IMG/VR virus record: IMGVR_UViG_3300041583_000385
Location: 1 to 64,000 of that record
DNA length: 64,000 nt
Origin: a virus
Direction: 5' to 3' (one strand)
Shown here: positions 12,994-62,603 of the stretch, piece after piece
Layout: the number at the start of each line of letters is the position of its first letter
Position numbering within the stretch: the stretch's first letter is position 1
Notes under the pieces: model-generated
Seen by the model: the letters and a program-made list of their open reading frames with translations, nothing else
Told to the model about the DNA's origin: nothing
Database searches by the model: none
Position numbers and translations under genes: made by a program

Positions 12994-14661
12994 ATGATAG
13001 TTACTAAATTAGTTTATATAAAGATATCTAGAGGTAATATAACTCACTTCTTAGATTATTACAAAGATATAAAATTAAAAGATATTATACAAGTAGATAT
13101 TGAATTTTTACAAAAAAATTCTAATAAAAAAATCGATGTCTCTTGTGATATATGTGGAATAGAAAGAAATATAAAATATCAATCATATATAAAGAATATC
13201 AATTCTTGTGAAAGTTACAAGATATACACTTGTGATAAGTGCTCACATATTAAAATTAAGAAAAGAAACCAAGAAAGATATGGTGTTGATTATTACTCAC
13301 AAACTGATGAATATAATACTAAATTCAAAAAAACAATGATTAATAGATATGGCGTTGAATACTCAACACAATCACCAGAGATTTTAGAAAAAATAAAGGA
13401 AACAAATTTAGAGAGGTATGGTGTTGATAACATATTTAAAGATAATAATTATATAAGAAGTAAATTTAAAGAGAAATATGGTGTTGATCACCCATCAAAA
13501 GTCACATCAATATATAAAAGGATAGAGAATACTAATTTAGAAAAAACTGGGTATAAATCACCACTATCATCACCTGATATTAGAAACAAAATAATAGAAA
13601 CAAATAATATTCGTTATGGATCAAATACACCATCTCAATCTGACACATTAAGAGATAATTTAATTACATCTGCTGATGGATATTTAAAGTATATTGGTGA
13701 TAATGTATCTATGTTTAATTGTGAATCTGAACACATATTTTATATAGATTCTTCTAACTTCCATAATAGAAATAGATCTAAAATACCTTTATGTACTGTT
13801 TGTAATCCAATTGGTGATTCACAGTCTATTAAGGAGAAATTATTATTTGAGTTTATAAAGTCGATCTATGATGGTGAAATCATACAATCATATAGAGATG
13901 GTTTGGAAATTGATATCTATCTACCCGAATTGAAAATTGGATTTGAGTTTAATGGTTTGTACTGGCATTCAGATAAATATAAAGATAGAAATTACCACTT
14001 AAATAAAACTAAGTACTTCAATGAAAGGGATATTAGAATTATACACATTTGGGAGGATGAGTGGGATTTAAAAAGAGATATTATAGAGAGTCAGATTAAA
14101 AATTGGATTGGATTAACAGAGAATAAAATATTTGCAAGAAAATGCGAAGTTAGTTTTATCAATGATAAAAAAATATCAACCAAGTTTCTAAATGATAATC
14201 ATGTACAAGGAGTTGATAGATCAATAATAAAAATAGGATTATACCATAAAGGTGAATTGGTTAGTTTAATGACATTTAATAAGAAAGAGGGTAGAGATAA
14301 CATGATGATTGATGAGTGGAATTTATCAAGGTTTTGTAACATATTAAATACTAATATTATAGGAGGTTCGTCAAAATTATTAAAATTCTTCATTAATAAT
14401 AAAGAACCTAAGAGAATTATAAGTTATGCTAATAAAGATTGGTCAGTTGGTGGGTTGTACTATAAATTAGGATTTAATAATATATCAGAGAGTATTCCAG
14501 ATTATAAATACATAATAGACGGTGTTAGAAAAAACAAACAAAGTTTTAAGAAATCAAATCTTAAAATCACAAATATAACAGAAAGTGAATATATGAAAAA
14601 ATCCCACATTCATAGAATATGGGATTGTGGTAAGATAAAATTTGAAATGAAGAATATTTAG
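12994..14661 (+). CDS. Putative homing endonuclease (YGV repeats, PD-(D/E)xK/Vsr-like and Hef-like C-terminus)
   Basis: CDIC, RYGV repeats, EIDIYLPELKIGFEFNGLYWHS, IHIWEDEW, IFARKC, IWDCG. Confidence 0.75.
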   Translation: MIVTKLVYIKISRGNITHFLDYYKDIKLKDIIQVDIEFLQKNSNKKIDVSCDICGIERNIKYQSYIKNINSCESYKIYTCDKCSHIKIKKRNQERYGVDYYSQTDEYNTKFKKTMINRYGVEYSTQSPEILEKIKETNLERYGVDNIFKDNNYIRSKFKEKYGVDHPSKVTSIYKRIENTNLEKTGYKSPLSSPDIRNKIIETNNIRYGSNTPSQSDTLRDNLITSADGYLKYIGDNVSMFNCESEHIFYIDSSNFHNRNRSKIPLCTVCNPIGDSQSIKEKLLFEFIKSIYDGEIIQSYRDGLEIDIYLPELKIGFEFNGLYWHSDKYKDRNYHLNKTKYFNERDIRIIHIWEDEWDLKRDIIESQIKNWIGLTENKIFARKCEVSFINDKKISTKFLNDNHVQGVDRSIIKIGLYHKGELVSLMTFNKKEGRDNMMIDEWNLSRFCNILNTNIIGGSSKLLKFFINNKEPKRIISYANKDWSVGGLYYKLGFNNISESIPDYKYIIDGVRKNKQSFKKSNLKITNITESEYMKKSHIHRIWDCGKIKFEMKNI

Positions 14662-14724
14662 TTTAATATTTTATCAATATTTAAATCTCTGATAACAGAT
14701 GTTGGGAATTTTAACCCATCCATA

Positions 14725-16158
14725 TCAATAACTATTGTTCACTCTGGAAAGTTCGGTTGGTTCTTTATATGTTCTCAAATTAAGAGCTTTGAACTCTGTA
14801 TTTGTATTTGTTTCTGTATTTGATTCAGTTGAATCAGTATTATCCGTAGATTGTGTACCACCACTTGGTAAAACACCAATCACACCATTACCCATATCAA
14901 CAAACCCTTCATCAGTTTTCAAAACAATACCATTACCAATATTCATTTCAACTTCACTTGGACCATCATTTAATACAGAAGGGTCATATGAATTAGAATT
15001 ACAGAATTTATCAAAGTCTGGTTCTTGTTCAAAACCATTACGTATCATTTTACCAACAAGTTGATGCCAGTTTAATTCACCTCTATATTCAAACTCACCA
15101 TTTCCAATGAGTGTCATTTTAGCAGATGGGTCGATAGAAACAACTTTTGATAAAATATCTCTGTCAAATTTTGTTTCGATATTTTCGAAATCATCTTTAC
15201 TATTAATTCTTATTTTATAAAAAGAACCAGTTAAGTACTTAAACAAAACATCCTTTTTAAGATTCATCAAATCAGCAATCTTATCAGCGATTCCTTTTGT
15301 AGTTTCATCAAGGCCAGTTTCATTCTTTTGCTCTTCTGATACAAAGAATACATATCCATTTGGCTCATCACCATCATACATACTATCTAATCGAGTTTCA
15401 AGTATACCAAGAGCATCTTCTGTTTCTTTTAATTTAGATTCAGCAAATGAAATCTCTTTCTTATATTTTTTAACATCATCTTGTTTATCACCGACTCTCG
15501 TTTTTAACTCAACCACTTTCTCAGCATTCATTCTTTCGAATTGCTCTTCCATATATGATTTAGTAACTGGTTCCTTTTCAACAACCACTTCTACTTCATC
15601 TTCCACTACTTCAATAGTTTCTACTTCATCTTCCACTACTTCATCTTTAGTCATACCAAGTAATGCGTCAAGAGCACTAAGTCCTTTATTGGAAAGTACA
15701 ACTTCCTCTTTTTCTGTTTCTTTATCCATATCGTCAAATAATGATTTTAGTTTATCAAATGGTTTTTGGTGTTCTACTTCTAAGTAGCAACGATTACCGT
15801 CAATATCAGAAAACTCTAATCCACCAATAACGAACTTTTGGGCATAACCCGTAACGTCCATTTCATCAATATCATCAAGTAGTCTTTTACATTGGGCTGG
15901 GTTTGTTTGTGATGTACCTTCCTCTTCTTCAAATTTTATAGTACCTTCATCACAAATTGTTATTTTAAAAATAACACCTTCTAAAACTCCAGAGAGTTTC
16001 TCACCTTTAAGAAAGGCAATATCACGCAATAATCGAACTCTCGACCCATTTACTGCTGATACGAAAGTTAAGAATTTTCTCTTTGGTTTAAAGTCACCAA
16101 TTATAATTGGTGTTTCGTTTTCCTCTGAGTTTTGTTTATTATCGAATGTTTCTTCCAT
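14725..16158 (-). CDS. Acidic coiled-coil hypothetical protein, 3' end probably scarred
   Basis: 477 aa; an out-of-frame tail ...SVIRDLNIDKILN* follows at 14658-14735. Confidence 0.65.
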   Translation of the reverse strand: MEETFDNKQNSEENETPIIIGDFKPKRKFLTFVSAVNGSRVRLLRDIAFLKGEKLSGVLEGVIFKITICDEGTIKFEEEEGTSQTNPAQCKRLLDDIDEMDVTGYAQKFVIGGLEFSDIDGNRCYLEVEHQKPFDKLKSLFDDMDKETEKEEVVLSNKGLSALDALLGMTKDEVVEDEVETIEVVEDEVEVVVEKEPVTKSYMEEQFERMNAEKVVELKTRVGDKQDDVKKYKKEISFAESKLKETEDALGILETRLDSMYDGDEPNGYVFFVSEEQKNETGLDETTKGIADKIADLMNLKKDVLFKYLTGSFYKIRINSKDDFENIETKFDRDILSKVVSIDPSAKMTLIGNGEFEYRGELNWHQLVGKMIRNGFEQEPDFDKFCNSNSYDPSVLNDGPSEVEMNIGNGIVLKTDEGFVDMGNGVIGVLPSGGTQSTDNTDSTESNTETNTNTEFKALNLRTYKEPTELSRVNNSY

Positions 16159-16210
16159 GTTTTTATTTAGTTATTCTACAAATATAGTTAATTTATATCA
16201 AAATACCAAA

Positions 16211-16609
16211 TTATACACCATCATTAATGATATCAATTTTAGCATCTCTCACCTCTTCCTTAGTAAATGGTGTTGGTAATTTATCACCATTTTGACAGAT
16301 TAAGTTATCAGTTTCGATATACTTATCACCTGTTTCTTTAATAAGTTCTTTCAGAACCTCATCTTCTGTTTCTTTATCATCTTGTATGTCAAATATCTGC
16401 ATACACTCATCTTTAAAGTCAGTAAAGTTGTGTACAACAACAGGATCTTCATCCGAATGTTTATCCAAACAAACCAATAGTAAAAGAAATTGCTCTCTCT
16501 TTGATAATTGTTTCATCTTTTCTACTTGTGTTACAACATTAAAATTTGTATAAATATCGACAAATTCATTCGATACTTTTATTTTTGTAACTTCTTTATT
16601 ACTATCCAT
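16211..16609 (-). CDS. Hypothetical protein, C-terminal tag
   Basis: Ends VRDAKIDIINDGV. Confidence 0.65.
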   Translation of the reverse strand: MDSNKEVTKIKVSNEFVDIYTNFNVVTQVEKMKQLSKREQFLLLLVCLDKHSDEDPVVVHNFTDFKDECMQIFDIQDDKETEDEVLKELIKETGDKYIETDNLICQNGDKLPTPFTKEEVRDAKIDIINDGV

Positions 16610-16613
16610 AATT

Positions 16614-16892
16614 TTACTTTTTTAGTATTTGTTTTATTTTTTGTTCTCTTATTTTTTCTATATCCATTTCGAAAATGGCTTGCATCATTGGTTTTGTTAT
16701 TTCTTCTTCTACACCACTTTCATTAAAAACTTTATATCTTCTCCAACGACCATTCAATCGATACATATTATTGTTTCTATCTTCATCATCATACCAAAGT
16801 TCATAACTACCATCATACCACTCACCTTCAATAAATCTATCAGTACACTCTATATGATTTAAAAGTGTGATTATAACTGAAAGAGTATTCAT
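16614..16892 (-). CDS. Hypothetical protein, C-terminal tag
   Basis: Ends IREQKIKQILKK. Confidence 0.55.
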   Translation of the reverse strand: MNTLSVIITLLNHIECTDRFIEGEWYDGSYELWYDDEDRNNNMYRLNGRWRRYKVFNESGVEEEITKPMMQAIFEMDIEKIREQKIKQILKK

Positions 16893-18512: not shown

Positions 18513-19249
18513 TTTAAAATATCATCAATTCTATTATTCCTACTGTAACATAATTCATCTTCTTCACATATCATAGAATCACCATACTGTATAACACTTG
18601 AATCACTATTTAACATCTCACAAGCATAATATTTTATCTTAAACTCATCATTTGTATTTTTAGTATAATTATATTCTAGTATTAAATAATCTTTTGATTT
18701 ATCACTTGGTTTAGAAACAATTGTACCAATTGGATATTCTAATAAACAATGTTCGTTACCATCCTCATCATATCCCCATATTAATTGAAAGTAGTTTATA
18801 GTATCTGTTATACATGATACATAAGCCATTATACTAGTTAACGATCCCTCAAATTTATATGTATACCTTGTAAAATCTCTTTTTAAAACACAATGTTCTT
18901 CTGATTTTTTTGATTTCAAAACTTTATCATCAATTAATATCGATCTGCGTTTTTCATTATTATTACTATCTCTAACTGACAAAACAGTTAAAAATTCAGC
19001 ACCTAATATATTTTCAAGTATATCGAAGAAATAATAACTTCTATTAGAACTCACTGAGAATGTTAAATTATACTTAATGTTTGGTTCTGGTACTTCTACC
19101 ATCCTAGAACCAGTGAAATGGTTATCTTCATTTTTAAATATTAGAATATCCGGATAAGATGAGTAATTACCACTATATGGTTTTATAATATAGTCTTTTA
19201 CTACATCATTCCATTTCATTATCTCTTTATCAGTTAAAAACTTTATCAT
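18509..19249 (-). CDS. Hypothetical protein, C-terminal tag
   Basis: Ends SRNNRIDDILN. Confidence 0.7.
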   Translation of the reverse strand: MIKFLTDKEIMKWNDVVKDYIIKPYSGNYSSYPDILIFKNEDNHFTGSRMVEVPEPNIKYNLTFSVSSNRSYYFFDILENILGAEFLTVLSVRDSNNNEKRRSILIDDKVLKSKKSEEHCVLKRDFTRYTYKFEGSLTSIMAYVSCITDTINYFQLIWGYDEDGNEHCLLEYPIGTIVSKPSDKSKDYLILEYNYTKNTNDEFKIKYYACEMLNSDSSVIQYGDSMICEEDELCYSRNNRIDDILN

Positions 19250-19485
19250 CCTAATATCTTATCAATTTTATCACTTCTAATTTCATCTATTCCTATGAAG
19301 TACTTATCAAAATCCCTTCTTGATAAAGGACTAAACATCTGATGTCTGTTCTCCATTAGAACATAAATATAAACTCCATTTTCTATCTCATAATCATCCG
19401 GAGTCATTGTTAAATAATATTTATCTCGACTCCATTTAATTTTATTATCCTCATTTATAACTGTCCTTTTACAATAAGCTTTCAA
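19246..19485 (-). CDS. Small protein, C-terminal tag
   Basis: Ends IRSDKIDKILG. Confidence 0.65.
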   Translation of the reverse strand: MKAYCKRTVINEDNKIKWSRDKYYLTMTPDDYEIENGVYIYVLMENRHQMFSPLSRRDFDKYFIGIDEIRSDKIDKILG

Positions 19486-19748
19486 TTTACAATTTGGTCA
19501 ATTTTTTGGTCCCGACTAATCTGGATAAAAAATCTATCAACATCACCTTCTGTTAGGAAATCAACAATCAATTGTGCTCCTGTTTGTTCCTCAAAAATAA
19601 GTTTATTACCTCTTTGGTAAATAGAATTATAAATAGTTACTCCTGGTATAATAATAAAACTATCGATATCTATATTCATATCTCCCTTACCAACAATATA
19701 TTTCTTTATTGATATTATCTTATTGATATTATTTGATATCCTTATCAC
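19482..19748 (-). CDS. Small protein, C-terminal tag
   Basis: Ends SRDQKIDQIVN. Confidence 0.6.
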   Translation of the reverse strand: MIRISNNINKIISIKKYIVGKGDMNIDIDSFIIIPGVTIYNSIYQRGNKLIFEEQTGAQLIVDFLTEGDVDRFFIQISRDQKIDQIVN

Positions 19749-20788: not shown

Positions 20789-21384
20789 TAAAGGTCTTTA
20801 CTTTTCTTATCTAGAAATTCCTTTTCTTCATCTGAAAGTGCTTCAATTCCTTTTTTATTGATCTTATCAAGTATCAAATCAATATTGAAATCAGGTGTAT
20901 CTTTATAGTCTTTACTAACAATTTCTTTAACTGCTTCAAATTTTATTATCTCTGGATCTATCTCTGGGATAGAATCAATAACATCTTGATTGTTGTGGTA
21001 ATCACCCTCTACAATCATCTTAACTTTTGTTATTTCTCTAACAATACGATCAACAATTGTAGGTATACTACCCTTATCTAATCTATTTGATAATATAAAA
21101 TTACCTATCTTCATTGTTATGTTCACACGAACTTTAGATAACTCAAAGGTTAGTCTATCATCAAATAGCATCTTAGAACTCTTCTCATACATATCTGTGT
21201 ATAGTTCTTCCCTATTCTCAACCTTGGGTACAAAAAACCCATAAGAGTAATAGAACTCTATTTTTGATTCATCGATTTCTTTCTTAATGAAGTTTTTCTG
21301 AGAATTATCTATCCATTCTTGTATGAATGGGAAATCTTTCAATACATCCTCTCTGTTTGTGTCAATTATAAACATATTATTCAA
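20788..21384 (-). CDS. Protein with DUF6576-like C-terminal domain
   Basis: FNIDLILDKINKKGIEALSDEEKEFLDKKSK. Confidence 0.7.
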   Translation of the reverse strand: MNNMFIIDTNREDVLKDFPFIQEWIDNSQKNFIKKEIDESKIEFYYSYGFFVPKVENREELYTDMYEKSSKMLFDDRLTFELSKVRVNITMKIGNFILSNRLDKGSIPTIVDRIVREITKVKMIVEGDYHNNQDVIDSIPEIDPEIIKFEAVKEIVSKDYKDTPDFNIDLILDKINKKGIEALSDEEKEFLDKKSKDL

Positions 21385-21691
21385 TTATATTTTTTATCCT
21401 ATATTCTCTTATATTGTCTAAACCTACAATAAGTTCTTTTTCTGAGTACTTATTTCCGTTAGATAATACATAATAGGGTTCTTTTTTCTCTGTCATTTCT
21501 TTATCCGGTGAGGTTGCAGAGATACTACCATCGGAACTATATTTTACATAATTCTCAATTGTGGTGTCTTTTGAATTAACAGATTTTAATTCTTCCGGCA
21601 ATTCAAATGTGAATTTCATACTCTTATAGATAAAATTCACTTCAAATATTTCTCCTGTTGATATTACTAATGCTTCTTTTGTAAATTTCAT
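21377..21691 (-). CDS. Hypothetical protein, C-terminal tag
   Basis: Ends IREYRIKNIIE. Confidence 0.65.
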   Translation of the reverse strand: MKFTKEALVISTGEIFEVNFIYKSMKFTFELPEELKSVNSKDTTIENYVKYSSDGSISATSPDKEMTEKKEPYYVLSNGNKYSEKELIVGLDNIREYRIKNIIE

Positions 21692-22146
21692 AATTTGAAA
21701 ATATCAAGATTATCCAATACTTGATCTAATTTAATTTGTCTATTTCTTTGTTCAAACGATTGTATGAAATCCCATCTTATATGACATATTTCCAAATAAT
21801 CATTCATAGTAGCTCTACCATATTCATTATACTCACCCTCGACCATTGTTAGAATAGCATGAAATTCATACTCACCAACTCTATCAACTTCACAATCCGA
21901 CTCAACCATAGTCTCAATTATCATTTCATCTGGATATGATCCTATCAATTGATAATAATAATCACTATCAAACTTAGTTATCTTTTTATATTTACCTTGT
22001 GGTGTTCCCATTGAATTATTATAATAATCAACATCAACCACACCACTTATAATAGAATATTTTTTACCAATTTCTATTACACCATTCTTAGGTCTTATTT
22101 CACTATATGATGATAGAATAAATATTATAGTAAATAATATAAGCAA
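21688..22146 (-). CDS. Hypothetical protein, C-terminal tag (5' end uncertain)
   Basis: Ends RNRQIKLDQVLDNLDIFKL. Confidence 0.5.
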   Translation of the reverse strand: MLILFTIIFILSSYSEIRPKNGVIEIGKKYSIISGVVDVDYYNNSMGTPQGKYKKITKFDSDYYYQLIGSYPDEMIIETMVESDCEVDRVGEYEFHAILTMVEGEYNEYGRATMNDYLEICHIRWDFIQSFEQRNRQIKLDQVLDNLDIFKL

Positions 22147-22276: not shown

Positions 22277-22699
22277 TCATAAAATTTGATTTAATTTATT
22301 ATCTCTATATGTGGAAAGGCTTATACCCTTCTCTATATCAAATAATATATACTCCATATCTTCAATAGATGGGTTCATATCACTACAATATTTTTCTTTA
22401 ACAGAATCTCTTATCAATACAACAGATTTACAATTATATGTTGTTACATACATACTACCATTTGGTAATGTTTTATTTCTAATCCATATAGATGGTGATT
22501 TTTCTATCTCCCATTTATTATCTGATAATGTATATTTTACTTCCATTTCATACTCAGTGGAATCTTCTCCATGTGCGGTTAATGATCTCTTATGAGTTCG
22601 ATATTTAGAAGATGGTGATTTCTCACGCCATACCAATGCACCAGAATTGGTGACACCACATAGTGACTCCATTACCCCATTTAACCTATCTTCCACCAT
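22277..22699 (-). CDS. Hypothetical protein, C-terminal tag
   Basis: Ends YRDNKLNQIL. Confidence 0.7.
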   Translation of the reverse strand: MVEDRLNGVMESLCGVTNSGALVWREKSPSSKYRTHKRSLTAHGEDSTEYEMEVKYTLSDNKWEIEKSPSIWIRNKTLPNGSMYVTTYNCKSVVLIRDSVKEKYCSDMNPSIEDMEYILFDIEKGISLSTYRDNKLNQIL

Positions 22700-23156: not shown

Positions 23157-23633
23157 CTAATTTATTATTAATGCTAAATTATATTCTCTTTTTAATTTCA
23201 TTGTCCAAGTTTCCACCTTCTGTTTAACTAGGCGATGTAAACAATTATATTCTCTTTTATTAATTTCTTCTAAGTTACCAATATGTTTAGTAAATAATGA
23301 CATTAAATCTTCTGGTGTCATTATATCATTAAATCTACCACTAGGATCCAATAGGTTAATTTCGTTTATGAAATTAATTATAGGTAATACTTCATACCAG
23401 TTTTCACCCTTTTTATCCCATGTATTAAACCATTTACGTATAACTAAATGAAAATATGATTTATTTTCTAAAAAAAACTCATATGTCATATTTACCTCTT
23501 TTGGTTTAATACCAATATATTTATCCCATTTTTCAATTAGATAATCTTTATCACAGTCTAATACTTTAATATCCATCGTTTGATGGAAATTAAATGTGAA
23601 ATTAATAAGGTTATCTAATTGTCCCTTTGTCAT
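23157..23633 (-). CDS. Hypothetical protein, C-terminal tag variant
   Basis: Ends KREYNLALIIN. Confidence 0.65.
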   Translation of the reverse strand: MTKGQLDNLINFTFNFHQTMDIKVLDCDKDYLIEKWDKYIGIKPKEVNMTYEFFLENKSYFHLVIRKWFNTWDKKGENWYEVLPIINFINEINLLDPSGRFNDIMTPEDLMSLFTKHIGNLEEINKREYNCLHRLVKQKVETWTMKLKREYNLALIIN

Positions 23634-24930: not shown

Positions 24931-25628
24931 AGCATTTTAGCTACGGATTTATGTTGTTTATCTGTTAAATATCCTCTTTTCTCATAAAAATCAAGAACAC
25001 TACTTAAAAATGAATTTGAATCTTTATTTAATTTGAATCTCAATTGTCTTATTAAATTAACCGACTTATCTGTGTCTTCATTAAGAATTTGGTTTAATTT
25101 AATATTTCTTAGCTCAGATGTTCCAATTTTTTTATTTAAGTACTCCATAAACTCATTCCATTGTACTTCTTCAATTGAATAATAATTTTTAGTAAATGGA
25201 CTTATTATAATTTTTAAACCATTACCCTCTTGTAGTAAGTATAGAGAATTAACGGGGCAATTTTGATACCTAACACTTATCCTAGTGTCTCTTTTTGATA
25301 TATCAACAAATACAGTATCTAAGTCATAAAAGTTATCAGGATCAAATGTAAACACATCTGAATCAAATTCAAATTTACCAAATTCTGATAATAATTTTTC
25401 AATATCTTGTAATGTTAAATCATTTATTAGAACACCATTATTTATAATAGCTTCAATTGGTTTGAAAAAGTCTTTTTTATTAAATATACTAGGATCCACA
25501 CGAGCGAAATCAGCGGTCATAGATGAAATACCATCTGGTATATAAGGAGTTGTTACCCCACCCCAAGCATTGTATTGGGGCACACCAAAATCATCATCTA
25601 TTTGTAAACTTATGAAAAAATCTAACAT
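24924..25628 (-). CDS. Hypothetical protein (internal tag plus LTDKQ motif)
   Basis: Internal LRNIKLNQILNE, then FLSSVLDFYEKRGYLTDKQ (similar to the 57037 ORF). Confidence 0.65.
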   Translation of the reverse strand: MLDFFISLQIDDDFGVPQYNAWGGVTTPYIPDGISSMTADFARVDPSIFNKKDFFKPIEAIINNGVLINDLTLQDIEKLLSEFGKFEFDSDVFTFDPDNFYDLDTVFVDISKRDTRISVRYQNCPVNSLYLLQEGNGLKIIISPFTKNYYSIEEVQWNEFMEYLNKKIGTSELRNIKLNQILNEDTDKSVNLIRQLRFKLNKDSNSFLSSVLDFYEKRGYLTDKQHKSVAKMLW

Positions 25629-27475: not shown

Positions 27476-27943
27476 ATGAAGTATATTAAACTATTTGAGA
27501 ACTTTGACTTCCCACCAAATATGAATATTGATGATATTGAGGAAATTTTCTTATCAGTATCAGATCTTGGATTTATATTTCATGACGTACACCTTTGTGA
27601 TATAGCTTCAATGGGTGATAAAGATATCATTGGAGATCACAATGAATTAGATATGAATAACCCTCAACGTGCGGTGTCAATTAGATTGGTTATGGATAGA
27701 GAGCCTCATAAAAATACAGAATTTCATCTCAGTGATGATTTTTATGAGGAATTTAAATTAACCATTGATCATTTTGAAAGTAGGTATGATTGTGAATTAT
27801 CTAATATCTATATACGTAAAAATAAACCAGTTTGGGTAAAAGATATCGATTCTATGAGAAAGTATATTAAATCTTTAACATCTATCAGTTGGATATCATC
27901 ATTCGATTTAGCATTCACATTAAATGATACCATTGATAATTAA
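27476..27943 (+). CDS. CTS-type putative internal head protein
   Basis: MKYIKLFENF; IEEIFLSVSDLG motif. Confidence 0.65.
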   Translation: MKYIKLFENFDFPPNMNIDDIEEIFLSVSDLGFIFHDVHLCDIASMGDKDIIGDHNELDMNNPQRAVSIRLVMDREPHKNTEFHLSDDFYEEFKLTIDHFESRYDCELSNIYIRKNKPVWVKDIDSMRKYIKSLTSISWISSFDLAFTLNDTIDN

Positions 27944-28273
27944 ATCCCTACGTATTGATATCAATTGTGTTAAAGATTCATCATCTTTTGGATCATAAGG
28001 TCTTCTATTCTCTAGAATCTTTTCCAAATTCTTTATTTGAGTATTAATAATAGGTATTGAAATTTCTTTCTTATTATAATTTAACCAATCCTCTTTTATG
28101 TATCTTGGCATGTTAGAAACGTCTTTTATATTTTCAATATCATCTTTTAGATAAAAATAGTTATCATTAACTTCTGTTATTATGGTAACAAAGCAAATTA
28201 AAGTATGATGTTCATATTCGGTAATTTGTGATATAATAACCCAAGGATCAATGTTTATTTCCCTATCATCCAT
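27920..28273 (-). CDS. Hypothetical protein, C-terminal tag
   Basis: Ends IRRDLIINGII. Confidence 0.6.
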   Translation of the reverse strand: MDDREINIDPWVIISQITEYEHHTLICFVTIITEVNDNYFYLKDDIENIKDVSNMPRYIKEDWLNYNKKEISIPIINTQIKNLEKILENRRPYDPKDDESLTQLISIRRDLIINGII

Positions 28274-35515: not shown

Positions 35516-36047
35516 TATAATACCACTAAAATTTATACCAACCATTGGTTGTGAATGGGTGGTTAAGAATAAATTCTTAATGTATAAACATTACGATCAT
35601 ATACCAGTTGCTTTTATAGAAAATGATATTGTTTATGTGTTTCTTGATAATAAAATATCCAGACAAATATTAAAATTAACTAAATGGTTGATAAAAGGTG
35701 GTATTGAATTCTATTTTACAAGCCCACTTTTATCCAATCCAAAAGGTATATTTGAAGAAGATATACACAGTACCGTAATAAAACATTACTTATATTCCTA
35801 TATACAAAAACCATTTTTCGAAGGATTTAAAAAAATAGAATTTGATATAATTGATAATATGGTTAAGTGGTGTATCAAAGAGAAGTGTATTGAGTTAATA
35901 AAAGATTGTTATGATCAAATATTGATAAAGGTTAATAGATCTGAATATGATTACTGGTCTAATAAATCATCCTTTGAATATAAAGGTGAAATAAGAGAAG
36001 ATTATAAGACACTTTATAGAGATATACAAATTAATATTATTCTGTAA
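35502..36047 (+). CDS. Hypothetical protein, C-terminal tag
   Basis: Ends YRDIQINIIL. Confidence 0.65.
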   Translation: MELNDIIPLKFIPTIGCEWVVKNKFLMYKHYDHIPVAFIENDIVYVFLDNKISRQILKLTKWLIKGGIEFYFTSPLLSNPKGIFEEDIHSTVIKHYLYSYIQKPFFEGFKKIEFDIIDNMVKWCIKEKCIELIKDCYDQILIKVNRSEYDYWSNKSSFEYKGEIREDYKTLYRDIQINIIL

Positions 36048-39072: not shown

Positions 39073-39439
39073 GAAGTGGACTCCTACTCCTATAATGGAG
39101 AACTTAGGTATTATGAATAAGCATTTGTCAGATACAATGTGTTTGTTTTGTGAGGATTATATTAGTAATAATCCTGATAGTCAAGATTTACCAGAAAGGG
39201 TAAATCAACTCTTGCTTAAATTACAAAATACTGAAAAGAGTGAGATTAAAAGAACATTATATAATCCAATAACTGGTGAAATTGAATATGAATTAGAGAA
39301 TGGGTTTATTATAACAGAAAAGAATAAATTTAAAAGAGAACCAACAACTGATGAATTAATATACTTATTTGGGGTTGATTTTGTTAGAGAGTTAAATCCA
39401 CAAATGTGGAGAGAATATTCATTAAATAAAATATTATAA
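39050..39439 (+). CDS. Hypothetical protein, C-terminal tag; N-terminus resembles a capsid-protein N-arm
   Basis: KKWTPTPIMENLG; ends WREYSLNKIL. Confidence 0.6.
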   Translation: MDKNKAIKKWTPTPIMENLGIMNKHLSDTMCLFCEDYISNNPDSQDLPERVNQLLLKLQNTEKSEIKRTLYNPITGEIEYELENGFIITEKNKFKREPTTDELIYLFGVDFVRELNPQMWREYSLNKIL

Positions 39440-41360: not shown

Positions 41361-41699
41361 ATCAAGAGTACCATATACACAACAATTACAAATGGAATCC
41401 ATCATAAGAGATAATATAACTAACATTCGATCAAAGAATGATTTTATCCCTGACTCTATTAACGATAAACTAAATTCACTATGAAGAATGACTAGAGATA
41501 TAACCAAAGATCTATATAATACAATGATGGCTATGAATAGAATGAGAAAAATTAAAAATATATTTAATGAGAGCTAAGTGGGAATTAATGAAGGAATTAA
41601 TGAAGACTGGTGAACAGTATATTAGTACAGATTGGGCTATAAAAAATATATTAAATATATCAAAGTAAGAATTCAGAAAAGAGAAAATTAAAAGAATAT

Positions 41700-42122
41700 T
41701 TGATGGAGAGTAAAGAAGAAAGATACGAGAAAACATATTTAAGAATGGCTAGAGAATGGGCAAACCTCTCACATTGTACAAGGAAACAGGTAGGAGCTCT
41801 TATAGTTAAGAATGGTATGATTATATCAGATGGTTATAATGGAACACCCACAGGCTTCGATAATGCTTGTGAGATAGAAGATGGCACAACAAGTTGGAGT
41901 GTTATACATGGAGAAGCAAACGCTATCTTGAAATGTGCTAGACATGGACATTCTTGTGATGGTGCTACTTTATATCAAACACATTCACCTTGTAGAGAAT
42001 GTTCTAAATTAATATTACAATCAGGTATAAAAAAGGTAGTTTATATTGTGGAATATAAAGACACATCTGGTTTAGACTTTTTAATAGAAGCTGGAATAGA
42101 AATTAAGAGATATGATGTTTGA
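41700..42122 (+). CDS. dCMP deaminase
   Basis: VGALIVK, GYNG, HGEANA, SPCRECSK. Confidence 0.92.
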   Translation: MMESKEERYEKTYLRMAREWANLSHCTRKQVGALIVKNGMIISDGYNGTPTGFDNACEIEDGTTSWSVIHGEANAILKCARHGHSCDGATLYQTHSPCRECSKLILQSGIKKVVYIVEYKDTSGLDFLIEAGIEIKRYDV

Positions 42123-42609
42123 TGTATTTGTAAATGAAATTAAAGCTGTAAGTCCTAAGAGAGAACTATCCGTATTCCCAATATCTGAATATAATTTAGA
42201 AGCTATCAAATATTTAGTTGAAAATTGTGAAATGGGTAATAACGGACCAAATATTAATGTTAGGTTAGCAACCTTTAATACATCACTTTGGTTAGGTGAC
42301 TTTCTTGATAAATATTGGGATAAGATATCATATGTGTCAAAGTTACCAGCTTTTAATATCATTAAAGTTGAGGATGGTTCTATTGTTGTGAAGACTTATG
42401 AAACAAAATCTGATACATTTGATAATGAAGAAGAGTTAGATAAATTCTTTGAAGATGGTAAATGGAAGAAGTTTGTAATATACAAAGTGTCTAAGTTCGC
42501 AGATATATCTAAAATGACTAGTTTTTATACTATTAGGTATGCTGATATAACTGAAAAGTATGAAGTTAGAGATAAAAAAATAGAACATATCTTGGGTGAT
42601 ATTAAATAA
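42112..42609 (+). CDS. Hypothetical protein, C-terminal tag
   Basis: Ends VRDKKIEHILGDIK. Confidence 0.7.
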   Translation: MMFDVFVNEIKAVSPKRELSVFPISEYNLEAIKYLVENCEMGNNGPNINVRLATFNTSLWLGDFLDKYWDKISYVSKLPAFNIIKVEDGSIVVKTYETKSDTFDNEEELDKFFEDGKWKKFVIYKVSKFADISKMTSFYTIRYADITEKYEVRDKKIEHILGDIK

Positions 42610-45036: not shown

Positions 45037-45088
45037 AATATCCGTAACACTAGATTAAAGGAAGCACATTCTATTTAATAAATAATCT

Positions 45089-46847: not shown

Positions 46848-46855
46848 AAATTTTA

Positions 46856-56034: not shown

Positions 56035-56397
56035 ATTCCTATATCATTTAATTTTTCATTCCTTCTTTTAGAAATATACATTGGATAAGTTTTGACTTTT
56101 TTAACAAAAGTTGGATAAAAATCAGTTACGGTTAAAACTTCTTTGTTTTTGGAATCAGCAAAATACTCTGCTGATTCCCAATCTTCATCCCTCAATTTCC
56201 TAGATTTTGGCTTATAATATATATTATATTAAATAGGATCTAGGAAATTGAGTGAGCACATAGCCTATAAAATTTAGATGTTGGTTTTTGAACCATTATA
56301 TAATCTACCATTTCACATAACATTGGGTATAATTTTATCATACCCGCGGGTTTAAACCCATAACTATTTATAAAATCTTTTATCTCTTCCTCATTCA
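56031..56397 (-). pseudogene. Gene interrupted by an inverted duplication; 3' part ends in the tag
   Basis: MNEEEIKDF...HSIS* then ...MYISKRRNEKLNDIGI*; 15-bp inverted repeat at the break. Confidence 0.5.
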
Positions 56398-56808
56398 TTA
56401 AACTAACTTTTCTAAATTAGCATTTCTATTAACAATCTTATCACCACCCATTAGTCTTTTAACTACTTCAACAGTGAATTTATATGATTTACCTGCTTTG
56501 TTTTTAGCAATCACAGGATATTTTCTATTTCTTGTTTTAATCTCAGTTACTTCAAAAGTAATACCACCTTGGTCAAAAGACATACCAACGATATCTTGTG
56601 TAAATCCAATTCTTCTACAAACTGATTCATATACACCTTTAACAACATCATTCTTCACATTGGTTGATACCTTTAATTTAGTTGTGTAATATGCACTATT
56701 GAATGAAGCACCACCCAAAGATATTGTAACATTTTCTTCTGCTTCAATTTCTTTTAATGCTTTTTGAATTTTTGCTTGTATTGATCTTACTCTTGCTCTA
56801 TCTATCAT
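56398..56808 (-). CDS. Hypothetical protein, C-terminal tag
   Basis: RNRKYPV motif; ends NRNANLEKLV. Confidence 0.7.
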   Translation of the reverse strand: MIDRARVRSIQAKIQKALKEIEAEENVTISLGGASFNSAYYTTKLKVSTNVKNDVVKGVYESVCRRIGFTQDIVGMSFDQGGITFEVTEIKTRNRKYPVIAKNKAGKSYKFTVEVVKRLMGGDKIVNRNANLEKLV

Positions 56809-59992: not shown

Positions 59993-60531
59993 TGTCTGAT
60001 AATAAAGTTACATTATTTGATATTAAATCTAACCTACAATATAGACAATATATAGTTTCAGAACTATCTAGTCGAGTTGATGATAAGTTGAAAACAGAAT
60101 TTATTAAGGTCATCAATCATGTTATTGATGACCCTAGTATATTTGATAGAGAAGATTTAGAAGGTAGTTTTTATGAGGGTGAAGATGATACACATGATTT
60201 AGTTTTACCAGCGGTTGCTAGGGTTTTGAACCAAGTATTTATAAAACCACCACCAATCTTCCAGGGGAAATATGATGAAGGTACTCGATTAGAATTATTT
60301 CAAACTATGTTTGATATTGATGAATTTAATGAATACTTAGTTAATATGTTGATAGAATCAAAGGGATCTTTGAGTAAATTCACAAATATTGATAGAACTG
60401 CTGAAACTTTATCACTAATAGTTGATAACTATATTGCTAAGTTAGTCACTGCTGTTTTGGAATCATATGATATAGATAATGACTTAATAAGACTTAAAAG
60501 AGAAAGAAAACTTAAATATTTAACAAAATGA
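59992..60531 (+). CDS. Hypothetical protein, C-terminal tag
   Basis: LVLPAVARVL; ends [11 protein letters not shown]. Confidence 0.65.
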   Translation: MSDNKVTLFDIKSNLQYRQYIVSELSSRVDDKLKTEFIKVINHVIDDPSIFDREDLEGSFYEGEDDTHDLVLPAVARVLNQVFIKPPPIFQGKYDEGTRLELFQTMFDIDEFNEYLVNMLIESKGSLSKFTNIDRTAETLSLIVDNYIAKLVTAVLESYDIDNDLIRLKRERKLKYLTK

Positions 60532-60842
60532 GGGTAGATTGGTATATTGATATTTCTGAACACATGAAAACAAAAAAAATGGCAGATCAAGTTATAAAGA
60601 CAGTGACTCCGTTGATGGATTATTTTTGTGAAAGGTTATCAGATCAAATAATGACTATTGAGAACATAGAAAAAACTTTTTCTGAGATTATAGAAGAAAT
60701 GCCTGTGATGAACCATAGGATAGTAGAAGTTAATGGTGAGAGGGAGTTTGTAATATATTATAATAGATGGGTTCGTATAAAATTGACGGACAGCACCAAA
60801 CAAATATATAGAGAAATAAAATTAACAAAGATATTATCATAG
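60528..60842 (+). CDS. Hypothetical protein, C-terminal tag
   Basis: Ends [11 protein letters not shown]. Confidence 0.65.
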
Positions 60843-61915: not shown

Positions 61916-62124
61916 TGAAACATCCAAAATTAAATAGTGTTGTGTATCATACTACTATGCCAAAAAAACCAATTGAGGGTAATATTTATTATAATTCGAT
62001 AGAATCAACTAATTATATTTACCAAGAAGATGGTAAATGGAAATCATTAACCTTTCATTCTGATATTTGGTATGGTATAAATGTTGATAGAAAGAAAAAA
62101 ATCAAGAATATTTATGAGCAATAG
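61912..62124 (+). CDS. Small protein with tail-fibre-like motif and C-terminal tag
   Basis: [12 protein letters not shown]...YIY...W; ends [12 protein letters not shown]. Confidence 0.6.
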
Positions 62125-62248
62125 TTATGTTGATTATATCACTACACACTTAGATAAAAGTATTACTTATTCCGAATATTTAGCTGAGAATTTAAATAAA
62201 AATATTGCTGCCGAATATTTAAGAAAGGAATCGAGAATGAATAATTGA
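62114..62248 (+). CDS. 44-aa ORF resembling a prohead core/scaffold repeat
   Basis: YVDYITTHLDKSITYSEYLAENLNKNIAAEYL; not in the ORF track. Confidence 0.4.
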   Translation: MSNSYVDYITTHLDKSITYSEYLAENLNKNIAAEYLRKESRMNN

Positions 62249-62294
62249 TTCCCCGTAATGGAATCAAAATGAATAAAATAAAATCAATATTCAA

Positions 62295-62603
62295 ATGAAT
62301 TATGTTTATATAATATCTTGTCAACGTGGACAAGCACTACCAGAAATATACTCTATGTGGATCACATATGAAAAAGCAATAACCGCTTATTATGATTGTT
62401 GTGTTAGTGATGGTAATAGAACAAGTTTTAAGAGATTGTATAAATTTCCATTAGATGAACTATACTGTGATATAAACAAATGGAGTGATATTAAGATGGG
62501 TAAAACTTGTAAATACCTACTTAAATTCGATTTCAAAGATTTAAAATCAGAACATCTATCAGTGAGTCGTGATAATAAGATAAGTGAATTGGGTATTGAT
62601 TAA
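62295..62603 (+). CDS. Hypothetical protein, C-terminal tag
   Basis: Ends SRDNKISELGID. Confidence 0.65.
   Translation: MNYVYIISCQRGQALPEIYSMWITYEKAITAYYDCCVSDGNRTSFKRLYKFPLDELYCDINKWSDIKMGKTCKYLLKFDFKDLKSEHLSVSRDNKISELGID

What the first reader, a model, noticed from the sequence alone, without database searches (positions are those of the whole stretch)
14658..62603. Shared C-terminal peptide tag (R-[DEN]-x-K-[IL]-x-x-[IL]-[LIV]) on more than 20 otherwise unrelated small proteins
Seen directly, protein ends: IRDLNIDKILN (14658), VRDAKIDII (16211), IREQKIKQIL (16614), SRNNRIDDIL (18509), IRSDKIDKIL (19246), SRDQKIDQIV (19482), IREYRIKNII (21377), NRQIKLDQVL (21688), YRDNKLNQIL (22277), KREYNLALII (23157), LRNIKLNQIL (internal, 24924), RRDLIINGII (27920), YRDIQINIIL (35502), ERDKKIEEII (37684), WREYSLNKIL (39050), FRKEKIKRIF (about 41700), VRDKKIEHIL (42112), RRNEKLNDIG (56031), NRNANLEKLV (56398), KRERKLKYLT (59992), [10 protein letters not shown] (60528), [10 protein letters not shown] (61912), SRDNKISELG (62295). 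The tag is absent from the recognisable enzymes and from the CTS-tagged proteins. Inference: an amphipathic docking helix that sends a variable cargo library to one common hub (a protease/AAA+ unfoldase, a chaperone such as the phage DnaK system, a membrane complex or a scaffold). I know of no described function for it.
Basis: partly seen in the sequence, partly recalled or inferred. Interest (0 to 1): 0.88.

Follow-up and report, generated by a model that had tools for sequence, protein, structure and literature searches.

The report
Shared C-terminal address tag, huge phage
About one in seven proteins of this huge phage, almost all small early-type proteins with no similarity to each other or to anything known, end in the same short helix built around an invariant arginine. 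It looks like an undescribed address label, and what reads it is still unknown.

Summary
In the 86-kb contig, 22 of 151 ORFs carry R-[DENKQS]-x-[KRNQ]-[IL]-x-x-[ILV] in their last 18 residues. There are 4 interior hits, and shuffles give about 0.3.

- **Scale:** the complete relative LR745206.1 has 137 tagged ORFs of 994.
- **Level of selection:** it acts on the peptide. Synonymous codons follow genome usage, and the arginine is 119 of 125, never lysine.
- **Bodies:** unrelated (136 BLAST clusters from 137 proteins) and almost all without family (Pfam 4 of 136).
- **Timing:** tagged genes lie in operons with host-type (Bacteroidota-like) promoters, not with the late and structural genes.
- **Dialects:** the tag is clade-limited. 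LR756504.1 uses R-K-x-[KR]-I-x-x-L and LR756501.1 uses R-T-K-L-[IM]-D-x-M-L-N.

These features fit one co-evolving reader, but inheritance of the tail within a lineage could also produce dialects. No reader was identified. The best candidate, on circumstantial grounds only, is the phage's zincin-metallopeptidase/vWA protein (window 11377-12906) with a MoxR-like ATPase.

AlphaFold puts the tag in the last helix of helical bundles, so it is not a floppy tail.

Earlier notes of this scan report other C-terminal tags on other T4-like phages. I found no description in print.

The parts
16223..16249 (-). tag RDAKIDIIN, then 3 residues, of ORF 16211-16609 (132 aa)
16623..16649 (-). tag REQKIKQIL of ORF 16614-16892 (92 aa)
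18515..18541 (-). tag RNNRIDDIL of ORF 18509-19249 (246 aa)
   Evidence: tail identical in the LR745206.1 orthologue
19252..19278 (-). tag RSDKIDKIL of ORF 19246-19485 (79 aa)
19488..19514 (-). tag RDQKIDQIV of ORF 19482-19748 (88 aa)
21383..21409 (-). tag REYRIKNII of ORF 21377-21691 (104 aa)
21715..21741 (-). tag RQIKLDQVL, then 8 residues, of ORF 21688-22146 (152 aa)
22280..22306 (-). tag RDNKLNQIL of ORF 22277-22699 (140 aa)
23163..23189 (-). tag REYNLALII of ORF 23157-23633 (158 aa). First gene of the operon; a TAnnTTTG promoter-like site lies upstream.
25083..25109 (-). internal copy RNIKLNQIL at residue 174 of ORF 24924-25628 (234 aa)
27923..27949 (-). weaker tag RDLIINGII of ORF 27920-28273 (117 aa)
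   Evidence: 18 homologues in related loci
36018..36044 (+). tag RDIQINIIL of ORF 35502-36047 (181 aa). The family is conserved next to the topoisomerase.
38005..38031 (+). tag RDKKIEEII, then 6 residues, of ORF 37684-38052 (122 aa)
39410..39436 (+). tag REYSLNKIL of ORF 39050-39439 (129 aa)
42568..42594 (+). tag RDKKIEHIL, then 4 residues, of ORF 42112-42609 (165 aa)
56037..56063 (-). tag RNEKLNDIG(I), the 'LGI/IGI' ending variant, of ORF 56031-56195 (54 aa)
56401..56427 (-). tag RNANLEKLV of ORF 56398-56808 (136 aa)
60499..60525 (+). weaker tag RERKLKYLT of ORF 59992-60531 (179 aa)
60810..60836 (+). tag REIKLTKIL of ORF 60528-60842 (104 aa)
   Evidence: tail identical in the LR745206.1 orthologue
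62089..62115 (+). weaker tag RKKKIKNIY of ORF 61912-62124 (70 aa)
62568..62594 (+). tag RDNKISELG(ID) of ORF 62295-62603 (102 aa)
14664..14690 (-). tag RDLNIDKIL, out of frame with the body ORF 14725-16158 (477 aa). It is in frame in the 731-aa LR745206.1 orthologue.
41675..41701 (+). tag RKEKIKRIF, three codons behind an in-frame TAA. It is in frame in the 51-aa LR745206.1 orthologue.
11377..12906 (-). candidate reader (inferred, not shown): zincin (HExxH) metallopeptidase with a vWA domain (DxSxS MIDAS motif), DUF2201_N + DUF2201

Best explanation
The motif is a protein-level address tag. It is a short amphipathic helix, consensus [TF]-K-[SQ]-E-[IL]-R-[DEN]-x-K-[IL]-[NKD]-[KE]-[IL]-[LGI], usually ending 0-2 residues before the stop.

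It marks 10-14% of the proteome in the closest genomes of a clade of huge (Mahaphage-type) phages, and about 1% in the most distant one. The marked proteins are small, fast-evolving, early-type proteins.

One face of the helix (R0, K3, I/L4, I/L7, L8) is read by a single common partner that co-evolves with it, so different lineages carry different dialects.

**Shown:** the existence, the scale, selection on the peptide, the helical state (as a model), the operon class, the clade limits and the dialects.

**Inferred:**
- That there is one reader.
- That it is the zincin-metallopeptidase/vWA protein working with the MoxR-like ATPase. These would capture, remodel or clip the tagged proteins as a group. 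I put about 0.2 on this last step alone.
For: **Positional enrichment**
- Contig: 22 of 151 ORFs against 0.3 in shuffles.
- LR745206.1: 137 of 994 ORFs against 42 interior hits, 60-fold per position.
- G003: 44 of 427.
- LR756504.1: 98 of 973.

**Selection on the peptide, not the DNA**
- Codon use in the tag matches genome usage. For R, AGA is seen 101 times (103 expected), AGG 22 (16), CGN 14 (17).
- I and L alternate at positions 4 and 7.
- The tag persists in loci of 26-40% GC.
- 44 of 131 tagged small ORFs have no same-strand start within 30 nt.
- Between orthologues the tail is 67% identical (277 of 416) and the body 50% (1896 of 3792).

**Specific recognition**
- With position 0 left free, it is R in 119 of 125 tails and never K, although K is 2.5 times commoner in the proteome.
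- Position 4 is I or L in 119 of 121.

**Short module**
- Conservation is confined to positions -5 to +9.

**Unrelated orphan bodies**
- 137 tagged proteins of LR745206.1 fall into 136 BLAST clusters.
- Pfam hits 4 of 136 and PHROGs 5 of 136.

**Lineage dialects, LR745206.1 against LR756504.1**

| Position and residue | LR745206.1 | LR756504.1 | p |
|---|---|---|---|
| 1 = D/E/N | 109 of 138 | 8 of 100 | 5e-30 |
| 4 = L | 61 of 138 | 5 of 100 | 2e-12 |
| 7 = I | 81 of 138 | 16 of 100 | 1e-11 |

- A third dialect in LR756501.1 has 14 tail hits and 0 interior hits, and 0 hits in the four other genomes checked, there on its narrower form.

**Early-type context**
- Within 60 nt upstream, tagged genes have TAnnTTTG 18 times and AATATATA-type sites 6 times. 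Genes with neither tag have 69 and 218 (p = 8e-7).
- Tag density falls as late-promoter density rises (Spearman -0.57).

**Reader candidate**
- The peptidase-vWA gene ends or follows the largest tagged operon in the window, in LR745206.1 and in G001.
- It keeps HExxH and DxSxS.
- It is 78-89% identical in the 120 best of 1774 hits.
- It is present in 4 of 4 tag-bearing genomes tested and absent from tag-less G004.
- It is 53% and 43% identical in the two dialect lineages.
- Peptide capture by vWA-MoxR pairs, and zincin peptidases acting on small variable proteins with conserved C-terminal peptides, are proposed in print (PMC7159879, passages).
Against: - No binding was shown for any partner.
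- In both AlphaFold models the tag is part of the last helix of a helical bundle. Its hydrophobic face may simply pack on its own protein.
- Dialects could reflect descent of tails from one founder in each lineage rather than co-evolution with a reader. In LR756504.1 the 98 tagged proteins form only 73 body clusters, with families of up to 7. Too few tagged orthologues link the lineages to test this: 4 pairs.
- Co-occurrence of the candidate reader is confounded by clade. 30 LR745206.1 proteins share the same profile, among them Hsp70, three M28-like peptidases and an AAA protein.
- The peptidase-vWA gene is not next to the tagged clusters in LR756501.1.
- The MoxR-like ATPase family occurs in 394 phage records, including N4-like phages. 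I did not check those for tags.
- Timing is inferred from promoter-like motifs only.
- In LR756501.1 the tagged set is small: 14-15 of 1073 ORFs.
Confidence: 0.6

Rival explanations
1. The tail is an autonomous structural element with no external reader. It is a generic last helix that caps or stabilises small folds, or lets tagged proteins pair with themselves or each other. Its lineage flavour comes from common descent of the tails.
For: - AlphaFold places the tag in the last helix of a helical bundle, with pLDDT about 92 (181-aa family) and 83-89 (122-aa family).
- Structural alignments run to the last residue.
- In the 181-aa family the tail is kept in 25 of 25 sampled members, down to distant ones, as part of the domain.
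- There is no flexible linker signal upstream.
Against: - An arginine that lysine never replaces, and fixed D/E/N and K positions, are not needed for packing on 136 unrelated bodies.
- Concerted shifts at five or more positions between lineages are hard to get without a shared constraint.
- The motif also occurs near N-termini.
Confidence: 0.15
2. The tag is a degron or tether read by a conserved host machine (ClpXP, Lon, FtsH, a tail-specific protease or the host DnaK system). It times the removal or folding of early proteins.
For: - Tagged genes sit in operons with host-type promoter motifs.
- The proteins are small orphans of the kind expected for host take-over.
- The same dialect is kept across loci from 65% to 92% topoisomerase identity and 26-40% GC, as a conserved host target would demand.
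Against: - 0-8 residues follow the motif, and 12 copies in LR745206.1 are interior. A free carboxylate is therefore not read.
- Dialects differ sharply between related phages, which is easier with a phage-encoded reader.
- The motif matches none of the C-terminal ClpX signal classes as I recall them. This is recall and was not tested.
Confidence: 0.12
3. The tag loads cargo into the procapsid. It docks on the capsid interior like the C-terminal helix of a scaffolding protein, so that tagged proteins are packaged and injected.
For: - In P22 gp8 the C-terminal helix-loop-helix anchors to the coat N-arm through R293 and K296, and removing the last 11 residues abolishes binding (PMC9965877, passages).
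- From those residue numbers: the R-x-x-K spacing is the same as here. With gp8 taken as 303 residues (recalled), R293 lies 11 from the end, close to the position here.
Against: - Tags are depleted where late and structural promoters are dense (Spearman -0.57). They are rare around the major capsid gene region, 0-2 per 20 kb between 140 and 260 kb.
- Tagged genes prefer host-type promoters.
- The phage has a separate N-terminal tag on late genes that resembles the T4 capsid-targeting sequence, and it never coincides with the C-tag (0 of 16).
Confidence: 0.06
4. The conservation is a DNA or RNA signal that lies in gene ends and only looks like a peptide. Candidates are a promoter, a translational-coupling element or a recombination site.
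For: - 87 of 131 tagged small ORFs have a same-strand start within 30 nt, against 308 of 594 untagged (odds ratio 1.8).
- Ile at position 7 favours ATA (63 seen, 43.5 expected).
- In one case a late-type promoter word overlaps the tag codons, upstream of 60845.
Against: - Codon choice otherwise follows the genome.
- I/L and D/E/N exchanges change first codon positions.
- Six-frame scans find good matches only in long open frames near their ends.
- 44 of 131 tagged small ORFs have no downstream start nearby.
Confidence: 0.03

Closest known systems
Peptide-processing modules linked to vWA-MoxR systems (Kaur, Burroughs, Iyer, Aravind 2020, PMC7159879; passages read), and the MoxR + metallopeptidase-vWA pair of T4-like jumbo phages (Iyer et al. 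2021, PMC7824862; passages read)
   Same: - Small, rapidly diverging proteins whose only conserved part is a C-terminal peptide, together with a zincin metallopeptidase.
- vWA domains proposed to capture a peptide, and MoxR to release it.
- This phage encodes such a peptidase-vWA fusion and a MoxR-like ATPase.
   Different: - Those are bacterial conflict systems with one or a few precursors per locus and other motifs (FxSxx, RxD, acidic).
- Here 100 or more genes per genome carry a helical R-D-x-K-I-x-x-I-L tag.
- No link between tag and enzyme was shown.
- The 2021 paper proposes virion assembly for the phage pair and does not mention tags.
C-terminal coat-binding helix-loop-helix of the phage P22 scaffolding protein gp8 (PMC9965877; passages read)
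   Same: A C-terminal helix docks through an Arg and a Lys three residues apart. With gp8 taken as 303 residues (recalled), the Arg lies 11 from the end.
   Different: - One protein, not a hundred.
- Expressed late and used in assembly.
- Needs a helix-loop-helix.
- Its hydrophobic pattern differs, as I recall the sequence (not tested).
T4 capsid-targeting sequence on internal proteins (recalled knowledge)
   Same: A short terminal peptide shared by otherwise unrelated phage proteins that sends them to one place.
   Different: - N-terminal, cleaved by the prohead protease, on late genes and on few proteins.
- This phage has its own N-terminal tag of that look (MKYLKKYKIFES-like). It never coincides with the C-tag.
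Clamp-binding C-terminal tails (T4 gp43, gp55, gp33; beta-clamp and PIP-box motifs) and the SspB-type tether to ClpX (recalled knowledge)
   Same: Many different proteins dock on one hub through a short, usually C-terminal motif.
   Different: - Those motifs are hydrophobic/aromatic-acidic, or need the extreme terminus.
- The clients are replication and transcription enzymes, not orphan early proteins.
- The motif here is basic and aliphatic and tolerates extra residues after it.
Other C-terminal tags noted by this scan on other large T4-like phages (AI notes e1-4772764, e1-5345930, e1-5882781; unchecked)
   Same: 10-30% of genes, small early proteins with unrelated bodies, lineage-specific tails, reader unknown. 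Some of those agents also pointed to the MoxR/vWA-peptidase pair.
   Different: Those tails (such as PExxL and PHLFL) are 5-6 residues at the very end. This one is a helix of about 14 residues around an invariant Arg, in a different phage clade.

Membership tests
vWA-MoxR-linked peptide-processing system (zincin peptidase + small proteins with a conserved C-terminal peptide) | A zincin metallopeptidase, a vWA domain and a MoxR ATPase are encoded by the same element | tested here: met
   Window 11377-12906 matches DUF2201_N and DUF2201 and has HExxH and DxSxS. A MoxR-like ATPase (phrog_1297, E = 3.7e-46) lies at contig 83256-84389. The two genes are not adjacent.
vWA-MoxR-linked peptide-processing system (zincin peptidase + small proteins with a conserved C-terminal peptide) | The precursor genes are linked to the peptidase gene | tested here: inconclusive
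   The peptidase gene ends or follows the largest tagged operon in the window, LR745206.1 and G001, and lies near it in G003 and G002. It is not near the tagged clusters in LR756501.1. Most tagged genes lie elsewhere in the genome.
vWA-MoxR-linked peptide-processing system (zincin peptidase + small proteins with a conserved C-terminal peptide) | The peptidase binds or cleaves the tagged proteins | not testable with these tools
   Needs biochemistry.
vWA-MoxR-linked peptide-processing system (zincin peptidase + small proteins with a conserved C-terminal peptide) | The C-terminal peptide is of the FxSxx, RxD, acidic or FtsH-associated type | tested here: not met
   The consensus is R-[DEN]-x-K-[IL]-x-x-[IL]-L. 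The types are as listed in PMC7159879.
P22-type scaffolding C-terminal coat-binding domain | Expressed and acting with the capsid proteins (late) | tested here: not met
   Tagged genes prefer host-type promoter motifs and avoid regions dense in late promoters. This rests on motifs, not on expression data.
P22-type scaffolding C-terminal coat-binding domain | An Arg and a Lys three residues apart in a C-terminal helix | tested here: met
   R0 and K3. The P22 residues are from PMC9965877.
T4 capsid-targeting sequence | An N-terminal position with a prohead-protease site | tested here: not met
   The tag is C-terminal. The N-terminal MKYLKKYKIFES-like tag sits on other proteins (16 in LR745206.1, none with the C-tag).
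SAP / HeH / Rho_N helix-extension-helix DNA-binding motif | A first helix with a conserved L-x-x-L...EL pattern about 15-20 residues upstream of the second helix | tested here: not met
   There is no conservation upstream of position -5 in 137 tails. No such Pfam family appears among 136 proteins. The SAP pattern itself is recalled.
C-terminal degron that reads the free carboxylate (ssrA-like) | The motif sits at the extreme C-terminus | tested here: not met
   R lies 9 to 18 residues from the end, and 12 full motifs are interior.
Clamp-binding / PIP-box tails | A Q-x-x-[ILM]-x-x-[FY]-[FY] or hydrophobic-acidic L-D-F-L-F type motif | tested here: not met
   The tag consensus has no aromatic pair and no Gln. 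The clamp motifs are recalled.

The most novel reading that the evidence does not exclude
These huge phages run a proteome-wide addressing system. A hundred or more fast-evolving early effector proteins carry one helical C-terminal label. The phage's own zincin-peptidase/vWA and MoxR ATPase machine, or another clade-specific reader, recognises the label and remodels, clips or clears all of them as one programmable group. Label and reader co-evolve into lineage dialects. The other C-terminal tags noted on T4-like phages would then be versions of one general, undescribed phage system.
Probability: 0.2. Interest if true: 0.9.

Novelty: new variant of a known kind. Interest (0 to 1): 0.74.

Why it matters
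- **Dark matter:** most genes of huge phages have no known function. A label shared by 10-14% of the proteome groups more than 100 orphan proteins per genome into one functional class.
- **A handle for experiments:** a 14-residue peptide with an essential arginine can be used to fish out the common partner and, through it, the pathway.
this would give a function to a machine that is widespread in phages and still uncharacterised. It would also show a phage counterpart of adaptor or degron libraries.
- **Dialects:** they offer natural specificity swaps for testing.
- **Engineering:** the tag could serve as a portable targeting peptide in phage work.

Tried and rejected
**DNA-level signal.** Rejected on codon usage, six-frame scans and downstream-start statistics.

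**Alternative genetic code.** Code 11 already gives ORFs of 100 aa or more summing to 27,085 aa (about 81 kb of coding) on the 86-kb contig. I took no other code.

**A larger hidden domain.**
- No conservation upstream of position -5.
- Pfam on 10 window proteins and on 136 LR745206.1 proteins gave nothing shared.
- PHROGs likewise.

**Known peptide or fold.**
- A profile of the tails against PDB sequences: best E = 0.31, an internal stretch of yeast Rrn11.
- ESM Atlas on a tail: no usable hit.
- Foldseek against the PDB on the 181-aa model: no match at E <= 0.001.
- VIA-align wide: best Z = 5.8 and 4.5, generic helical bundles.

**Phylogenetic profiling for a reader.**
- Tag-less G004 shares only 23 proteins with the G003/LR745206.1 pair, so presence/absence is confounded by clade.
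- The stricter four-genome filter still leaves 30 candidates.
- ClpP is absent from tag-bearing G003.
- A double-AAA protein is present in the tag-less genome too.
- The MoxR-like ATPase family occurs in 394 phage records. I did not test those phages for tags.

**Complex prediction.** Peptidase-vWA protein with the 122-aa tagged protein (residues 44-122): 'no answer', score 0.00 in two runs. This is no evidence either way. I sent no job for Hsp70, DnaJ, tail-tail pairing or the capsid protein.

**Expression.** No RNA holder is listed for the stretch. The laid runs are DNA contigs only.

**Frame break at about 14.7 kb.**
- The only run covering it (apart from a trace of X3, mean depth 0.71) is the probable source of this DNA. 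X2 and X4 have no depth there.
- Whether the frame break is real therefore stays open.

**Ortholog-level test of dialect switching.** Only 4 tagged pairs link LR745206.1 and LR756504.1.

**DPYGEExW motif of LR756501.1.** I first took it for another C-terminal tag. It is commoner inside proteins (32 interior, 10 tail), so I dropped it.

**Resemblance to the topoisomerase large subunit's own end** (R-K-x-E-L-L-K here; RKEKLLKL in distant relatives). I treat this as chance or as part of the TOPRIM_C fold.

**Literature.**
- Searches found no description of this tag.
- I read passages only of PMC7824862, PMC12619734, PMC9965877 and PMC7159879.
- I saw Al-Shayeb et al. 2020 (PMC7162821) only as a search listing.
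- I did not ask for supplementary files. Protein-family tables there could bear on the claim that the tag is undescribed.

**From memory, not from any call:** the Bacteroidota sigma-A -7 element TAnnTTTG, the T4 late promoter, the T4 CTS, the clamp and ClpX motifs, the length of P22 gp8 and its end sequence, and the name 'Mahaphage'.

Full report
**What the DNA is.**
- The window is the first 64 kb of an 86,322-bp virus contig. It has 28% GC and CheckV rates it 12% complete. The standard code fits it.
- It encodes T4-type topoisomerase II subunits, gp32-like SSB, RNA ligase, Hsp70 and DnaJ.
- Its nearest record is the 634,780-bp uncultured phage LR745206.1, at 81% nucleotide identity over the topoisomerase region.
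- The peptidase gene described below is found in only five phage records. These hold four genomes, of 634,780, 636,363, 642,428 and 735,411 bp (LR745206, LR756504, LR756502, and LR756501/LR756503 for the last).
- Contigs holding the stretch come from salt-lake metagenomes. One of them is probably the source of this DNA.

- I called 151 non-overlapping ORFs on the contig. 22 of them carry R-[DENKQS]-x-[KRNQ]-[IL]-x-x-[ILV] in their last 18 residues, against 4 hits in 24,035 interior positions.
- Whole-protein shuffles give 0.29 per genome and shuffles of the last 30 residues give 0.36.
- In the window alone the count is 19 of 105, one of them doubtful.
Two lie behind a frameshift or an in-frame TAA, whereas their LR745206.1 orthologues are in frame.
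- The arginine lies 9-11 residues from the end in most cases.

**Peptide or nucleic acid?**
- Arg is written AGA, AGG, CGG and CGT; Ile as ATT, ATA and ATC; Leu as TTA, CTA, CTT, CTG and TTG.
- Over 137 tags in LR745206.1, codon counts match genome usage. The one exception is an excess of ATA at position 7.
- A third of tagged small genes (44 of 131) have no same-strand start within 30 nt.
- Six-frame scanning finds good matches only near the ends of long open frames.
- The tag survives in relatives of 26-40% GC.
- Between orthologues the tail is 67% identical and the body 50%.
- A second salt-lake run holds a contig that differs from ORF 16211-16609 at 20 listed sites, and 17 of them are third codon positions (my arithmetic). 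This ORF at least is under purifying selection.
- The signal is therefore at the protein level.

**Anatomy.**
- Aligned on the arginine, 137 tails show information only from position -5 to +9. The consensus is [TF]-K-[SQ]-E-[IL]-R-[DEN]-x-K-[IL]-[NKD]-[KE]-[IL]-[LGI]-x, with an '[IL]-G-I' ending variant.
- With position 0 left free it is Arg in 119 of 125 tails and never Lys. Position 4 is Ile or Leu in 119 of 121.
- On a helical wheel R0, K3, I/L4, I/L7 and L8 share one face, and the variable polar positions 2, 5, 6 and 9 lie opposite (my arithmetic).
- AlphaFold2 with family alignments gave two models:

| Family | Model quality | Where the tag sits |
|---|---|---|
| 181 aa (window 35502-36047) | pLDDT 87.7 | helix 171-180, pLDDT about 92 |
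| 122 aa (window 37684-38052) | pLDDT 73.4 | end of a 29-residue helix |

- Structural searches found only generic helical bundles, with alignments running to the last residue. The tag is thus the end of a folded last helix, not a floppy tail.
- Twelve full motifs in LR745206.1 are interior, five of them with the arginine within the first 32 residues. A free terminus is not needed.

**Who carries it?**
- In LR745206.1, 137 of 994 ORFs carry it. The median length is about 100 aa and only one exceeds 250 aa.
- Stripped of their tails, these 137 proteins form 136 BLAST clusters.
- Pfam names 4 of 136 and PHROGs 5 of 136.
- No Pfam-assigned enzyme of the window has the tag.
- A separate N-terminal tag (MKYLKKYKIFES-like) is found on 16 LR745206.1 proteins and never coincides with the C-tag.

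**When are the tagged genes expressed?** Intergenic words fall into two classes.
- TA-n-n-TTTG matches, from memory, the Bacteroidota sigma-A -7 element.
- TTTAATATATA-type words stand before the major capsid gene and its neighbours.
- Tagged genes have 18 of the first class and 6 of the second within 60 nt. Genes with neither tag have 69 and 218 (p = 8e-7).
- By transcription unit, 70 of 274 genes are tagged in the first class and 32 of 414 in the second.
- Tag density falls as late-word density rises (Spearman -0.57).
- This points to early, host-polymerase operons, but it rests on motifs only.

**How far does the tag reach?**
- In 80 topoisomerase-anchored loci, all 32 with 65-92% identity hold 1-10 tagged ORFs. 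The 48 loci at 53-62% hold none, apart from the topoisomerase's own R-K-E-K-L-L end, a few stray matches and one true tag at 62%.

| Genome | Size | ORFs with the tag |
|---|---|---|
| G003 | 281 kb | 44 of 427 |
| G004 (100% complete) | 271 kb | 1 of 346 |
| LR756504.1 | 636 kb | 98 of 973 |
| LR756501.1 | 735 kb | 14-15 of 1073 |

- The 181-aa family has 165 clusters in the 1.84-billion-protein library. All 25 members I fetched, down to the most distant, end in the tail.

**Dialects.**
- LR756504.1 uses another dialect, R-K-x-[KR]-I-x-x-L-[LNY].
- Position 1 is D/E/N in 109 of 138 LR745206.1 tails but in 8 of 100 LR756504.1 tails. Leu at position 4 drops from 61 of 138 to 5 of 100. Ile at position 7 drops from 81 of 138 to 16 of 100.
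- LR756501.1 has a third dialect, [EF]-K-N-[WF]-[KR]-R-T-K-L-[IM]-D-x-M-L-N, on small ORFs only. It has no interior copy and, on its narrower form, no copy in the four other genomes checked.
- Arg0 and the hydrophobic 4/7/8 frame are common to all three.
- A change of many unrelated proteins together is what a shared co-evolving reader predicts.
- The caveat is that tails may descend from one founder per lineage. LR756504.1 has paralogue families of up to 7. Only 4 tagged orthologue pairs link the two genomes, so I could not separate the two readings.

**Who reads it?** This is not known.
- Thirty LR745206.1 proteins are shared with LR756504.1, LR756501.1 and G003 and are absent from tag-less G004. 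They include Hsp70, a MoxR-like ATPase, the peptidase-vWA protein, three M28-like peptidases, an AAA protein, a Dam methylase and RNA ligase.
- I favour the peptidase-vWA protein (window 11377-12906) for these reasons:
  - HExxH and the DxSxS MIDAS motif are intact.
  - It closes or follows the largest tagged operon in the window, in LR745206.1 and in G001. In G001, 13 tagged genes lie between 354 and 364 kb, then one small untagged gene, then the peptidase gene.
  - It is unusually conserved: 78-89% identity in the best 120 of 1774 hits.
  - Its identity falls to 53% and 43% in the two dialect lineages.
- Its likely partner ATPase (phrog_1297) lies at contig 83256-84389.
- In print, Kaur et al. 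2020 propose that vWA domains capture a peptide which MoxR then releases. They also describe zincin peptidases that act on small, fast-evolving proteins with conserved C-terminal peptides (passages).
- Iyer et al. 2021 note the MoxR + peptidase-vWA pair in T4-like jumbo phages and suggest a role in virion assembly (passages).
- All of this is circumstantial:
  - The co-occurrence is clade-confounded.
  - The gene is not next to the tagged clusters in LR756501.1.
  - The ATPase family is widespread (394 records).

**Comparison with what is known.**
- The principle that many proteins are sent to one partner by a short terminal peptide is established. Examples are the T4 capsid-targeting sequence, clamp-binding tails, degrons, and the Arg293/Lys296 helix of the P22 scaffolding protein (PMC9965877).
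- This motif, its scale, its restriction to early-type orphan proteins and its dialects are not described in the papers I could search.
- Earlier notes of this scan report other C-terminal tags on other large T4-like phages. Several of their authors also pointed to the MoxR/vWA-peptidase pair. These are unchecked AI notes. They gave me the lead to the 2020 paper and are not independent evidence.

**Verdict.**
- The reader of the tag and the purpose are unknown.
- I rate it a new variant of a known kind, with interest 0.74.

Noticed in passing
window 5955-6149, 32433-33230, 44161-45036, 51630-52718, 52703-53035, 56869-57045; contig 72393-75353: A second shared tag, N-terminal and MKYLKKYKIFES-like, sits on otherwise unrelated proteins. 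It is often behind TTTAATATATA-type promoter words. There are 16 in LR745206.1, none with the C-tag. From memory it resembles the T4 capsid-targeting sequence.
   Followed up: partly
window-wide, for example upstream of 23633, 30021, 35189 (class A) and 2872, 31403, 33325, 55222 (class B): There are two promoter-like word classes. TAnnTTTG is host-type. TTTAATATATA stands before the capsid and structural genes, the topoisomerase genes, RNA ligase and the N-tagged genes.
   Followed up: partly
window 14664-14735 and 41660-41701: Two tags are cut off from their ORF bodies, one by a frameshift and one by an in-frame TAA. The LR745206.1 orthologues are intact. Whether this is assembly error, decay or recoding is open. 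The frame break near 14.7 kb is covered only by the probable source run, apart from a trace of X3 (mean depth 0.71).
   Followed up: partly
window 12973-14661 (+) and 10417-11328 (+): Homing-endonuclease-like genes (DUF7487; phrog_3339). The first is inserted between the large tagged gene and the peptidase-vWA gene and is absent at that place in LR745206.1.
   Followed up: no
window 33325-35169 (+), C-terminus; loci L069-L113: The topoisomerase II large subunit itself ends in an R-K-x-E-L-L-K helix (RKEKLLKLSI in distant relatives). This fits the loose tag pattern. It is probably part of the TOPRIM_C fold.
   Followed up: no
LR756501.1 (loci L150-L169, L202-L218), for example 11314-11850, 44452-46983, 196539-196901: A DPYGEE-x-W motif recurs 42 times in the first 400 kb. 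10 copies lie at protein ends and 32 inside proteins. It occurs in none of the other genomes. It could be a repeat, a linker or a processing site.
   Followed up: partly
LR745206.1 276022-277188, 401118-402320, 226974-228071: Three paralogous M28-like peptidase genes (weak Pfam hits, 20-24 bits) are conserved across the tag-bearing lineages and absent from tag-less G004.
   Followed up: no
window 48518-50398 (-) and 60845-61915 (+): The phage encodes Hsp70 and a full class-A DnaJ. Hsp70 is present in 3 of 3 tag-bearing genomes tested and in 0 of 2 tag-less ones. DnaJ is flanked by four tagged genes.
   Followed up: partly
window 24924-25628 (-): A 234-aa protein has a full tag at residues 174-182 followed by 52 more residues. 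It looks like a tagged protein fused to a further module.
   Followed up: no
window 20788-21384 (-) and 28266-28880 (-): The last 30 residues of these two untagged ORFs (198 and 204 aa) look alike, ending ...KKG[IM][ED][AS]LS[DN]EEK.FL... Each is overlapped by a neighbouring tagged gene. No BLAST pair was reported between them.
   Followed up: no
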